Shown here piece by piece: positions 34,520-38,782 of a stretch of 64,000 nt of DNA. The notes beneath the pieces are model-generated. The model was not told where the DNA came from, made no database searches, and was given only the letters and a program-made list of their open reading frames with translations. How positions within the stretch are numbered: the first letter of the stretch is position 1; the number at the start of each line of letters is the position of its first letter. Source of the DNA: the human T2T-CHM13v2.0 reference genome, Homo sapiens. Both the position numbers and the translations under genes were made by a program. The stretch lies in the NCBI RefSeq assembly GCF_009914755.1, contig NC_060946.1; one strand, given 5' to 3'.

Positions 34520-35668
34520 TAGAGAGAGTTTCCCCCTTCTCTTCCTTTGCTGGGACCAAATTCTAAGCTGCATTCTTTACTATATTGGTCAGATGGAATC
34601 TCTTGCTGGATTCAAACCAAGACATGGTTTATGTGCAAGTCCTTTCTTATCACCATTTAGCCATTCTTGAGTTCCACATTTTGCTATATTTGTTGTCTGT
34701 AGACCATCCTCAAGTAATTTTTTCTAGAAGAGAATATGAAGATATGCTTTTTAATACTAAAAATAGATAAGAATGTTTTCTTCTGCCACTTCCAGACAAT
34801 AAAAACAGTTTGGCTGGGTATAAAATTATGGGGTCTCATCTTTTATTCTTTTAAGTTGCCCTTTTGGGGACATTTATTATTGCAGGGAGAAATCTTAGTC
34901 TTTTGAAGTTAAATTATTATTTTAATGTTTAATGTTTTCTGTCTAAATCCTTAGAAGATTTTTCATTTACCTTTGGAATTCAAAGCCAGAATTAATCTAG
35001 TCATGGTCATTTTTTTCATTACTTTGTTCATAACCTGGTGATATTTTTCAAGACACATTATTAAGGTTTCCTTAACTCTGGAACTTTTTTCCATTGTATC
35101 TTTGATTAATACTGGTGCTATAATGCCTGACTCTCATGATGGTTATTATAATTAATTGATATTTCTCTCATAAAACAATTAGGGTGATGCCTGGCATCCA
35201 CTGAGTGCTCAACAATTTTAATTATCTTATCTGTCTCCTTTACAGTCATTTTCTAGGGTATTTGGGCTTCTTATTTGGATAAAGCTCATATTTTTTATAA
35301 ATTGGTGTTGCCTGTCATTATTTTCATTAGATCCCTAGTAATAGGTCCAAGACAGGACACTTTATGATCCCCTGAAACATAAGATACAACTCCACCTTGG
35401 TGAAAGAGACTTTGAGATCTGACCCTAATCTCTAAGAAGGCACCAGACTTTTGATCTCATACAAGCCAAGAATAGACTCTCATAAAACACTTTGAGTATA
35501 CAGCTATGCATTCCAAACTTTCAGTGAGTAAAAAAGCATAAAAATTTATCAACTTATAAATTCTTTCTACAAGTGCAATTAGGCTGGCTAAGCAAAAGTA
35601 AACAGGATAAAAGAGTATCTCTTAAAAGAGGAAGAACTTTTTTCAAGCAGTTGTTAAAGACCTATCTA

Positions 35669-36247
35669 CAAATTGCTTATATGTTAATTATAAATCAAGT
35701 ACTCTAGAAACACCCATTGATAAATGATTTTCATGCAAATTATAAATTGCTTAAGAGAGCTCATTCACAAAATGATCTGTGCGCTAATTACAAATCAAGA
35801 AACTTAAACATACACATATACAAATGGTTTATGTGCTAATTACAAAAGGCATTTTAGAGACTATCATTTACAAATTAAATACATGCTCATTGCCCACTAA
35901 ATACTTTAGAAATTTCTATGTACCAATAATTTTCATGCTAGTTACACAGCAAATAATCTGAAACATACACAGTGTTTGCAAATAATCCATGTGCTAATTA
36001 CACAACACACACTTTAAAAACACCAATGTAAAAATGATTTGTGTGCTAATGACATAACAAACACCCTAGAAACTCCCAGATACATATGATTTATGTCTAA
36101 TTACACATCAGACACTTCAGGAACACCCATGTGCAAATGATTTATGTGCTAATTACACCGACACTTAATTTCAAAAATGTCTAACAACAAATTATTTGTA
36201 TGCTAATCACAAATCCAAACACTTACAATTGATTTATGTCCTAATGG
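35669..36247. repeat. Degenerate tandem array, 12 units, modal period 52 bp
   Basis: Unit starts 35669, 35721, 35769, 35821, 35871, 35923, 35979, 36031, 36083, 36134, 36188, 36226; core CAAATGATTTATGTGCTAATTACA. Confidence 0.9.
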
Positions 36248-36313
36248 TTAGCTGCTCTTATTTTGTTTCCTTTAAGGACCCACCATCTCAACAGATTGAC
36301 AGCTTTCTTCTGA

Positions 36314-36759
<446 letters not shown>

Positions 36760-38463
36760 AGGATTTATCTATTAGAGCAGGCTGAGAAGTATTACTTAGG
36801 GTAAGAGTGTTCTCTTCCTTTTGTCTGTTTCATTGGAACCATCAAATTAATGTAATGAATGAAGTATAGGTGCTTATTAGCCACTCAGTCTATATACTAA
36901 TCTTTCATGTTCAAAGACCTATTACTGTCCTCAAATGTATTTATGCAGAAATTTTGTCCATCATGGCCACTACTGCTTCCTTATGCCCTCTCTAGCATGT
37001 GATAGCTTACAAAAAAATTTTCCATATTCATTATCTTATTGGACTTGCTTCTTATAAAGGAGGAAGGACTCAAAAATAGAGGTTAAAAGTTCCCGTTTTG
37101 CAGATGGGAAAACTGAGGCTCAGCATAGCCAAGCAGTATTTCTCGTGGCAGACTTGACTCCAAAGTCAGCCAAACTTCACAACTAACGGTTTTTCTTCCA
37201 GTTGACATTCCTCCACAGGAAAACCTTCCATGGCCATCTTCCCAGAAGTCTCTAGAACAAAAACACCAACACTGCCCATAGGATGGGATCCACTCTCCCC
37301 TGCTACTGCATCCCATCCTGTCTCCTCCTGGCTCTCTCAGATCCCTGGCCTCTCCCTCCACACCATGCTGGCGTTTCAAACCAGACTGGGGGCCCCAGCA
37401 CGCTTCTCACCTCTTTAAGAGTGAAAATGTATATCCCAGAGATTGCTGCTTAATTGGCTGATTAATAACAGAAAACCTAATTGAATGCTCCCAGCTCGTA
37501 TGTACGATGTCTTAATGTTAGAGCCTTGGGAATAAACACACAGCAGGGAAGTCTGAACCGCAGCACAAGCACTAGCACTTTCAATTTAAAAGTCAATCTC
37601 ATTATACAAGAAGCTGTTGCCTTTATCCCCCTGGAAAAGCTCACACTCTCAAACCAGATTCCCCTTGTACCAGCATCCTCTGCTCCATCCTGTCTCTGAG
37701 TGACGCAAATATTAGGATAGGTCCCCTTTTTCCTTCTTTCCCCTTCCCCTCTCCTTCCCTCTCTCTGTCTCTGTCTCTCTCTCTCTTTCTGTTTGTTCTC
37801 CCTGCTGCATATCTGAGCAGCTCAGTAAATATTCATGAAATGCCATTGTGAGGTCTGTGAAGAGCGCAGACAATGGGCCGTCAGAGGTGATGTGCAATTT
37901 GGCATCGCCAGCACCCAAGGGTGAGGGAGGCAGTGAGGTGCCTCCAAGTCAAGCCTCATGTTACATACTGGTCCGTTCAGCTTTCTCCTTCAGGGCAGCC
38001 TGACTGGAAGTCTTATGGTGCTCAGAAAGCTGAGCTAGGTATTCTTGGCTGGGCTTAGAGTGACCAGGGAAGAGTCAGTAAGGGCTCCCGTACCCTAGGC
38101 TCGTCCTGGTCAATCACAGCATCTGAGGTAGGGCTGAAGCTCCTGGACAACTTTATTAATCAGCAAAGGGCTGCCATAACAATGTAGCACAGACTGGGTG
38201 GCTACCTTCTAAACAACAGAAATTTATTTTCTCCCTGGTCTGCAGGCTGGAAGTCCCCGTTCAAGGTGTAGCAGGGTTGTTTACTCCTGTGTCCTCTCTC
38301 CTTGGCTCAAAGATGGCACCTTTACGTTGTGTCCTCAACATGGTCTTCCCTCTGTGCATGCAGAGTGTCTTTCTCTGTATCCAAGTTTCCTCTTAAAAGG
38401 ACACCAATCAGACTGGATTAGGACCCCACCCTAAGGACTTCATTTTAACTTAATCATCTCTTT

Positions 38464-38782
<319 letters not shown>

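What the first reader, a model, noticed from the sequence alone, without database searches (positions are those of the whole stretch)
35669..36247. Cryptic 52-bp tandem array with a preferentially conserved homeodomain-motif core
Seen: 12 diverged units with spacings 52, 48, 52, 50, 52, 56, 52, 52, 51, 54, 38. By-eye consensus CAAATGATTTATGTGCTAATTACACATCAAACACTTTAGAAACACCCATGTA (52 nt). The first ~24 nt look better preserved than the remainder (exact core at 36134; near-exact at 35821, 36031, 36083). It matches no transposon I recognise. Established: TGATTTAT is a PBX-HOX composite site, TAATTA a homeodomain site, ATGCAAAT (35733) the POU octamer and ATGCTAAT a variant; 52 bp is about 5 helical turns. 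Inference: an ancient minisatellite retained as a helically phased homotypic enhancer or chromatin-binding array, with selection on the motif half of each unit.
Basis: partly seen in the sequence, partly recalled or inferred. Interest (0 to 1): 0.8.

Follow-up and report, generated by a model that had tools for sequence, protein, structure and literature searches.

The report
Old decayed 52-bp minisatellite, chr22
This is a real but very old and worn tandem repeat of a 52-base unit, found only once in the human genome, and nothing tested here shows that it is more than ordinary decaying repeat DNA.

Summary
The array is real. TRF reports period 52, 7.5 copies, 64% matches and score 213 at 35770-36158. 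The best of 300 dinucleotide shuffles scored 68. At relaxed settings it spans 35656-36228 with 11.0 copies.

It is a single-locus array. Whole-genome BLAST and four word or pattern searches of the T2T assembly found no second array and no dispersed family. Unit identities are flat at about 66% at every lag. This fits one amplification burst followed by long independent decay.

The better-kept 24-nt core is true in raw counts, 16% against 32% mismatches. It shrinks to 16% against 23% with gap-aware alignment and vanishes in the six gap-free units (p = 0.32). A neutral simulation gives p = 0.35 for substitutions alone and p = 0.017 with indels added.

The motifs are poorly kept: TGATTTAT in 3 of 12 units, TAATTA in 6 of 12. 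Only 5 of 11 spacings are 52.

Most likely this is a neutrally decaying ancient minisatellite. An enhancer role is untested. Dfam, cross-species alignments and epigenomic data were not available.

The parts
35669..36247 (+). Whole decayed 52-bp tandem array (about 11 units plus a 22-nt partial unit)
   Evidence: TRF relaxed run gives 35656-36228, 11.0 copies. cmsearch with R1 finds 12 consecutive hits at 35669-36245 and nothing else in the window below E = 0.3 (the model was built from these units).
35770..36158 (+). Best-kept stretch of the array (units 3-10), the part TRF sees at 2/5/7
   Evidence: Period 52, 7.5 copies, 64% matches, score 213. The maximum of 300 shuffles was 68.
35669..35720 (+). 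Unit 1 (52 nt)
   Evidence: Found by held-out profiles: E 1.6e-4 (trained on units 3, 4, 7-10) and E 0.0028 (trained on units 7-10).
35721..35768 (+). Unit 2 (48 nt), weak; carries the ATGCAAAT at 35733
   Evidence: Not recovered when held out. Supported only by register and 56-69% pairwise identity.
35769..35820 (+). Unit 3 (52 nt)
   Evidence: Held-out E 6.6e-5 (trained on units 7-10).
35821..35870 (+). Unit 4 (50 nt)
   Evidence: Held-out E 1e-4. Its core is 95% identical to that of unit 10.
35871..35922 (+). Unit 5 (52 nt), weak
   Evidence: Held-out E 6.6, not significant. In register, with 58-69% pairwise identity.
35923..35978 (+). Unit 6 (56 nt, extra bases at its end)
   Evidence: Held-out E 0.018 (trained on units 7-10) and 0.08 (trained on units 3, 4, 7-10).
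35979..36030 (+). Unit 7 (52 nt)
   Evidence: Held-out E 4e-4 (trained on units 1-6).
36031..36082 (+). Unit 8 (52 nt)
   Evidence: Held-out E 4e-6 (trained on units 1-6).
36083..36133 (+). Unit 9 (51 nt; 1-nt deletion inside the core)
   Evidence: Held-out E 1.8e-4. Alignment.
36134..36187 (+). Unit 10 (54 nt; core identical to the consensus, second half scrambled by indels)
   Evidence: Held-out E 0.0022, over the core only. Alignment.
36188..36225 (+). Unit 11 (38 nt, truncated)
   Evidence: Held-out E 0.014-0.028.
36226..36247 (+). Unit 12 (22-nt partial unit, core only)
   Evidence: 90% ungapped identity to the 20-nt core. Held-out E 1.7-3.6, not significant on its own.

Best explanation
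This is a single-locus, very old minisatellite. One AT-rich 52-nt unit was amplified head to tail to about 11-12 copies, by replication slippage or unequal exchange, in essentially one episode. That episode lay roughly at or before the radiation of placental mammals. Since then each copy has decayed independently and close to neutrally by substitutions, CpG loss and small indels, until the array is at the limit of detection.

The homeodomain, PBX-HOX and octamer-like words are inherited copies of what happened to lie in the founding unit. The apparently better-kept first half mostly reflects where a handful of indels fell.

Shown: the array, its uniqueness, the flat identity structure, the eroded motifs and the broken period. 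Inferred: the mechanism of birth, the age and the neutrality.
For: - The array is real and far above chance.
- It is unique in the assembly. BLAST of the whole array finds only itself. A two-core gapped pattern finds only itself.
- The 23-nt core at up to 3 mismatches gives 48 hits genome-wide, 7 of them in the array. All 27 outside loci that were fetched (of the 41 outside hits) show a single core-sized match and no second unit.
- A second-half 23-mer gives 13 hits against 120 for its control.
- A unit-junction 24-mer gives 5 outside hits, none with an array.
- Both flanks are single-copy by BLAST.
- Unit identities are 56-82%, with means of 0.65-0.67 at lags 1 to 7 and no higher-order period.
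- Columns 12-13 read TG in 7 units, CA in 3, TA in 2 and CG in 0. This is the pattern left by a lost CpG. C at column 12 always goes with A at column 13 (hand-computed one-sided Fisher p = 0.045).
- A mean pairwise identity of about 66% equals what two neutral copies reach after roughly 0.2 substitutions per site each. That figure for the human lineage since early placental mammals is recalled, not computed.
- Substitutions alone show no significant core effect (p = 0.35; p = 0.32 in gap-free units).
- The period is broken in 6 of 11 spacings.
- There is no single-strand structure signal: z = +1.17.
- No RNA family overlaps it.
Against: - Taken with indels, the first 24 columns are less damaged than the rest beyond my neutral simulation (ratio 0.567, p = 0.017).
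- In-register 6-mers of the core survive in 2-6 of 12 units, against 0-3 of 10-11 for the rest.
- TAATTA is intact in 6 of 12 units. That is more than expected if the core decayed at the second half's rate (binomial p = 0.024 at 23% change per site).
- A/T and G/C columns are both better kept in the core under the MAFFT alignment, so base composition alone does not explain the difference.
- The genome searches are word-based and would miss paralogues below about 85% identity to my probes.
- Dfam was not available.
- Neutrality was not tested across species.
Confidence: 0.65

Rival explanations
1. The array is transposon-derived. It is either the internal tandem region of an ancient, low-copy interspersed repeat or a minisatellite seeded from a fragment of one, later amplified in place. 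It would then be an already catalogued or catalogable repeat family rather than a locally born sequence.
For: - Many minisatellites arise inside transposons (established knowledge, recalled).
- The core 23-mer has more near-matches genome-wide than its reversed control: 41 outside the array against 11.
- 4 of the 27 fetched loci (L008, L016, L021, L025) are copies of one interspersed family. They are about 81% identical over 160-180 nt and end in an A-rich tail. By recall they look like the 3' end of an old L1.
- In one of them the match to the array runs 44 nt across the unit 6/7 junction.
Against: - The reversed control contains a CG, which is depleted in human DNA, so the control is biased low (my reading).
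- The four family copies were preselected for matching the core.
- A profile built from them hits the array only over about 28 nt of that same core (E 0.0027 at best) and nowhere else in the unit.
- Local alignment scores are matched by 2-22 of 200 shuffles despite the preselection.
- There is no second array and no second-half or junction family.
- Flanks 34600-35668 and 36248-36462 are single-copy by BLAST.
- No terminal inverted repeats were found around the array.
- 0 of 20 open frames between 32.5 and 38.4 kb give a credible Pfam hit.
Confidence: 0.17
2. One reading: the array has been co-opted as a homotypic cluster of homeodomain, PBX-HOX or POU sites, that is, a tandem-repeat enhancer or silencer acting in the gene desert. 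Purifying selection acts on the motif-bearing half of each unit.
For: - The core is less damaged than the rest when indels are counted (p = 0.017).
- The best-kept words are GCTAAT and TAATTA (6 of 12) and CTAATTAC and TAATTACA (5 of 12).
- TGATNNAT is the HOX-PBX site and TGATTTAT is among the variants enriched in HOXA2 peaks (PMC8707757, passages read).
- Tandem repeats carrying up to 61 homotypic motifs can be potent, regulated enhancers, with motif clusters conserved across mammals (PMC13373173, abstract and section 12 read).
- By recall, the locus lies in a gene desert near the developmental gene MN1.
Against: - The substitution-only test is null (p = 0.35; p = 0.32 in gap-free units).
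- TGATTTAT survives in register in 3 of 12 units. Its last base lies in the TG/CA/TA dinucleotide, so the founding unit may have read ...TTTAC, which is not a TGATNNAT site (inference).
- TAATTA is lost in 6 of 12 units. An octamer or its ATGCTAAT variant is present in 2 of 12.
- The phase is kept in only 5 of 11 spacings.
- No RefSeq functional element overlaps the array (hub table).
- Motif clustering is an automatic result of amplification.
- The finding was picked by eye for its conserved core, so p = 0.017 is post hoc.
Confidence: 0.1
3. The array acts structurally as an AT-rich, one-strand G-poor base-unpairing or matrix-attachment stretch (the 'chromatin-binding array' variant of the reader's idea). 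It would be bound by AT-hook or SATB-type proteins rather than by sequence-specific homeodomain factors.
For: - The array is 70% A+T, against 58% for the window.
- GC skew is -0.28 at 35750-36249, among the three most negative values in the profile from 33.5 to 38.5 kb; 37250-37749 is lower at -0.305.
- Long stretches of each unit have no G on the + strand (seen in the consensus).
- That such 'ATC' stretches bind SATB1 is recalled, not tested.
Against: - The case rests on composition only.
- The surrounding 1.5 kb is also AT-rich, with GC of 0.29-0.34.
- There is no binding data.
- There is no single-strand structure signal.
- Nothing requires the tandem organisation.
Confidence: 0.04

Closest known systems
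Degenerate (fossil) minisatellites of the human genome, as catalogued by Tandem Repeats Finder and VNTR surveys (e.g. PMC8096271, search listing and abstract start only)
   Same: Head-to-tail copies of a 10-100 bp unit, at a unique locus, AT-rich, intronic or intergenic. Copies diverge by substitutions and small indels.
   Different: Far more decayed than the arrays usually catalogued: 58-64% matches. TRF with penalties 2/7/7 and threshold 50 does not report it. By recall those are the settings of the common genome-browser track. Whether copy number still varies between people is unknown.
Tandem-repeat enhancers with homotypic transcription-factor motif clusters (MORC3-repressed elements; the IFNB1 element with 45 PU.1 sites; PMC13373173, abstract and section 12 read)
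   Same: A tandem array in which every unit carries the same factor-binding word, giving a dense homotypic cluster.
   Different: Those arrays keep tens of intact motifs, and the motif cluster is conserved across mammals while the units turn over. Here only 3-6 of 12 units keep the proposed words, and no binding, accessibility or activity is known.
Interspersed-repeat 3' end shared by L008, L016, L021 and L025 (L1-like by recall)
   Same: Contains a word within 3 mismatches of the array's 23-nt core.
   Different: The similarity stops at about 28 nt and was preselected. There is no tandem structure in those copies and no match to the second half of the unit.

Membership tests
Minisatellite (tandem repeat, unit 10-100 bp) | Head-to-tail copies with a constant period, beyond chance | tested here: met
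   TRF gives period 52 and score 213, against a maximum of 68 in 300 shuffles. The relaxed run gives 11.0 copies.
Minisatellite (tandem repeat, unit 10-100 bp) | Local array, not copies of a dispersed element | tested here: met
   Only self-matches for the array, a two-core pattern, the junction and the flanks. The sensitivity limit is roughly 85% identity to the probes.
Minisatellite (tandem repeat, unit 10-100 bp) | Copy-number variation between individuals (VNTR) | not testable with these tools
   Only one assembly is held.
Known transposon or satellite family (Dfam/Repbase) | Many dispersed copies in the genome | tested here: not met
   The core 23-mer gives 41 outside hits, each a single core-sized match in the 27 loci fetched. 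The second-half 23-mer gives 13 hits against 120 for the control. The junction 24-mer gives 5 outside hits.
Known transposon or satellite family (Dfam/Repbase) | Structural hallmarks: terminal inverted or long terminal repeats, coding remnants | tested here: not met
   One 14-nt, 86% inverted pair only. 0 of 20 frames with a credible Pfam match.
Known transposon or satellite family (Dfam/Repbase) | Significant match to a curated consensus or profile | not testable with these tools
   No Dfam or Repbase library is held.
Homotypic motif-cluster (tandem-repeat) enhancer | Many intact copies of one factor's motif | tested here: inconclusive
   TAATTA in 6 of 12 units, TGATTTAT in 3 of 12 in register, octamer or variant in 2 of 12. 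Density is high against the window, but it is inherited from one founding unit.
Homotypic motif-cluster (tandem-repeat) enhancer | Selective retention of the motif part relative to the rest of the unit | tested here: inconclusive
   p = 0.35 for substitutions and p = 0.017 with indels. p = 0.32 in gap-free units.
Homotypic motif-cluster (tandem-repeat) enhancer | Chromatin accessibility, factor occupancy, reporter activity, cross-species retention | not testable with these tools
   No epigenomic tracks or other mammalian genomes are held. The hub's RefSeq table lists no functional element over 35669-36247.
Helically phased site array | Site-to-site spacing kept at a whole number of helical turns | tested here: not met
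   Spacings are 52, 48, 52, 50, 52, 56, 52, 52, 51, 54 and 38. Only 5 of 11 equal 52.

The most novel reading that the evidence does not exclude
A roughly 100-million-year-old minisatellite in the chr22 gene desert has been kept as a cluster of about ten GCTAATTAC-type homeodomain sites. Selection tolerates substitutions between sites but removes indels and changes within the 24-nt core. It would be a fossil tandem-repeat enhancer or silencer of a neighbouring developmental gene.
Probability: 0.08. Interest if true: 0.6.

Novelty: new member of a known kind. Interest (0 to 1): 0.2.

Why it matters
As it stands it matters little. It is one more decayed minisatellite, notable mainly because standard TRF penalties miss it. 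It also shows how amplifying a single unit can mimic a designed cluster of binding sites.

If cross-species data showed periodic constraint on the core, it would be a rare case of a tandem-repeat enhancer conserved at the sequence level over deep mammalian time. The known tandem-repeat enhancers instead keep motif number while their units turn over.

Tried and rejected
1. HIGHER-ORDER STRUCTURE. A 4-unit or 2-unit repeat was suggested by shared variants (units 2 and 6, 3 and 7, 1 and 3, 2 and 4) and by TRF's period-103 row. Mean identity is the same at lags 1-7, 0.65-0.67. Rejected.

2. L1-3'-end origin of the unit. Similarity is confined to the preselected core. Rejected as unsupported.

3. 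RNA gene or structured element. Rfam gives only Alu-type hits outside the array. The DNA fold z is +1.17, and 89 of 100 shuffles fold at least as well. Rejected.

4. Coding remnant. No Pfam support in 20 frames; the best hits are E 0.005-0.19 and below cut-off. Rejected.

5. Searching the genome with my unit profile R1. The tool does not accept a model for this genome, so I used words and patterns instead.

7. Literature.
- 'LOC102724900': 0 papers.
- 'ancient tandem repeats' + conserved + mammals: 0 papers.
- tandem repeat + homeodomain + enhancer + minisatellite: 14 papers, none about this locus by title.
- The search for tools that detect degenerate repeats gave nothing usable among the 10 papers listed.

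8. Base composition as the cause of the core effect. A/T and G/C columns both differ under MAFFT, so composition alone is not the cause.

Full report
WHAT IS THERE

Window 35669-36247 (T2T chr22:27,811,669-27,812,247, + strand) lies in an intron of the predicted lncRNA LOC102724900, according to the hub table. It holds a decayed tandem array of a 52-nt AT-rich unit.
- TRF at match 2, mismatch 5, indel 7 reports period 52, 7.5 copies, 64% matches, 5% indels and score 213 at 35770-36158.
- The same program on 300 dinucleotide-preserving shuffles of 35600-36300 never exceeded 68.
- With relaxed penalties (2/3/5) the array grows to 35656-36228, with 11.0 copies and 58% matches. A period-103 description scores slightly higher.
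- With penalties 2/7/7 and threshold 50 nothing is reported. By recall these are the settings behind the usual genome-browser simple-repeat track.
- It is the only long-period, multi-copy array in the 64-kb window.

THE UNITS

That model was built from these units, so its matches are by construction.

Held-out profiles are the fair test.
- Trained on units 7-10, the profile recovers units 3, 4, 1, 6 and 11.
- Trained on units 1-6, it recovers units 8, 9, 7, 10 and 11.
- Units 2, 5 and 12 are not recovered when left out. They rest on filling the register.

So 9 of 12 units are independently supported. Held-out matches to units 1, 3, 4 and 6 run to profile positions 38-48. The second half of the unit is therefore also recognisably conserved, not only the core.

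HISTORY

Pairwise unit identities are 56-82%. Their mean is 0.65-0.67 at every lag from 1 to 7. There is no higher-order repeat and no gradient.

This is the pattern of one amplification episode followed by independent decay. A pairwise identity of about 66% corresponds to roughly 0.2 substitutions per site per copy. By recall of neutral rates on the human lineage, that is about the age of the placental radiation. This dating is inference.

The most variable dinucleotide of the core, columns 12-13, reads TG in 7 units, CA in 3, TA in 2 and CG in none. This is the classic residue of a lost CpG. C at column 12 is always paired with A at column 13 (hand-computed one-sided Fisher p = 0.045).

If so, the founding unit read ...TTTACG... 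Its supposed PBX-HOX octamer would have ended in C, which does not fit TGATNNAT. The TGATTTAT copies would then be by-products of CpG decay. This is inference. Descent from TG is the alternative.

IS IT A COPY OF SOMETHING?

No Dfam library is available, so I used the assembly itself.
- BLAST of the whole array and of both flanks returns only the locus.
- The exact 23-nt core with up to 3 mismatches gives 48 hits, 7 in the array, against 11 for the tool's reversed control. The reversed word contains a CG, which is depleted in human DNA, so that control is biased low.
- I fetched the 27 best of the 41 outside hits. Every one shows a single, core-sized match and no neighbouring unit.
- Four of them (L008, L016, L021, L025) are copies of one interspersed family, about 81% identical over 160-180 nt with an A-rich tail. 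By recall this looks like an old L1 3' end.
- A profile built from those four hits the array only across the same roughly 28 nt for which they were preselected. Local alignments are matched by 2-22 of 200 shuffles.
- A two-core gapped pattern finds only the array.
- A second-half 23-mer gives 13 hits against 120 for the control.
- A unit-junction 24-mer gives 5 outside hits, none with an array.
- No terminal repeats flank the array.
- None of 20 open frames within 3.5 kb has a credible Pfam match.
- Rfam finds only Alu-type signals outside the array.

Within the reach of these word-based searches, roughly 85% identity to my probes, the array is unique.

IS THE CORE PREFERENTIALLY CONSERVED?

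In the MAFFT alignment of all twelve units, mismatches to the consensus are 46/285 (16.1%) in columns 1-24 and 89/282 (31.6%) in the rest. A circular best-window permutation gives p = 0.013. A/T and G/C columns both show the difference.

The effect depends on the units that carry indels in their second half.
- In the six gap-free units (1, 3, 5, 7, 8, 9) the figures are 17.5% against 22.6%. Fisher p = 0.32, scan p = 0.91.
- With gap-aware realignment of all units they are 16.0% against 22.6%. There are 4 deleted columns and 0 insertions in the core, against 16 and 8 in the rest.

I then simulated 1500 arrays decaying uniformly from the consensus. Substitution rates were base-specific and about ten indels fell at random. 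I applied the same pipeline, including choosing the best 24-column window afterwards.
- The observed ratio for mismatches alone (0.705) is ordinary: p = 0.35.
- The ratio for mismatches plus indels (0.567) is reached in 1.7% of simulations.
- The simulated overall damage rate was 0.210, against 0.234 observed.

In-register word survival tells the same descriptive story: 2-6 of 12 units across the core and 0-3 of 10-11 across the rest. GCTAAT and TAATTA are kept best, at 6 of 12.

My reading is that there is a modest asymmetry, carried mainly by where a few indels fell. It is nominally significant at best, and it concerns a feature that was picked by eye because of it. It does not establish selection.

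MOTIFS AND PHASING

TGATNNAT is indeed the HOX-PBX site, and TGATTTAT is one of the variants seen in HOXA2 peaks (PMC8707757, passages read). TAATTA and ATGCAAAT as homeodomain and POU sites are recalled.

In register, the motifs survive as follows:
- TGATTTAT in 3 of 12 units
- TAATTA in 6 of 12
- ATGCAAAT in 1
- ATGCTAAT in 1

Their density against the rest of the window is high. TAATTA occurs at 10.4 per kb in the array against 0.38 per kb outside. But the copies are not independent, because they descend from one founding unit.

The 52-bp period, about five helical turns, holds in 5 of 11 spacings. The others are 48, 50, 56, 51, 54 and 38, so the phase has not been protected.

The array has no single-strand structure signal (z = +1.17). 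It is G-poor on the + strand, with GC skew of -0.28, and 70% A+T. No RefSeq enhancer or silencer in the hub table overlaps it.

COMPARISON WITH WHAT IS KNOWN

It meets the definition of a minisatellite and fails every transposon test I could run. The Dfam test remains open.

Tandem repeats with up to 61 homotypic motifs act as strong, MORC3-repressed enhancers, and their motif clusters are conserved across mammals while unit sequences change (PMC13373173, abstract and section 12 read). This array differs in having few intact motifs and no functional data.

VERDICT

- Ancient, unique minisatellite in near-neutral decay: about 0.65.
- Transposon-derived: about 0.17.
- Selected homeodomain-site array: about 0.10.
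- Structural AT-rich element: about 0.04.

Noticed in passing
window 5436-5513: A 36-bp unit repeated 2.2 times (81% matches, TRF score 100) lies inside the RefSeq-annotated enhancer 5357-5526 of the hub table. It is a small tandem duplication within an annotated functional element.
   Followed up: no
window 36463-36762 and 38492-38781: Alu-type elements on the minus strand. They give Metazoa_SRP hits below gathering score and mir-1268, mir-3135 and mir-1285 look-alikes, with many 70-86% BLAST matches in unrelated loci. The first starts 215 nt downstream of the array and does not interrupt it.
   Followed up: partly
window 9829-10275: (TGGA)n microsatellite with 111.8 copies and 83% matches. 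It coincides with the masked stretch 9887-10281.
   Followed up: no
L008, L016, L021, L025 (around position 1500 of each): Four loci fetched for a core-like 23-mer are copies of one interspersed family. They are about 81% identical over 160-180 nt and end in an A-rich tail. By recall this is an old L1 3' end that happens to contain ...ATGCTAATTAC....
   Followed up: yes
window 35750-36249: Strong strand asymmetry of the array: GC skew -0.28 and 70% A+T against 58% for the window. Long G-free runs occur on the + strand of each unit.
   Followed up: partly
window 35667-36224: At relaxed penalties TRF also describes the array with period 103 (5.4 copies, 62% matches, score 423). Unit identities by lag give no support for a dimeric higher-order repeat.
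   Followed up: yes
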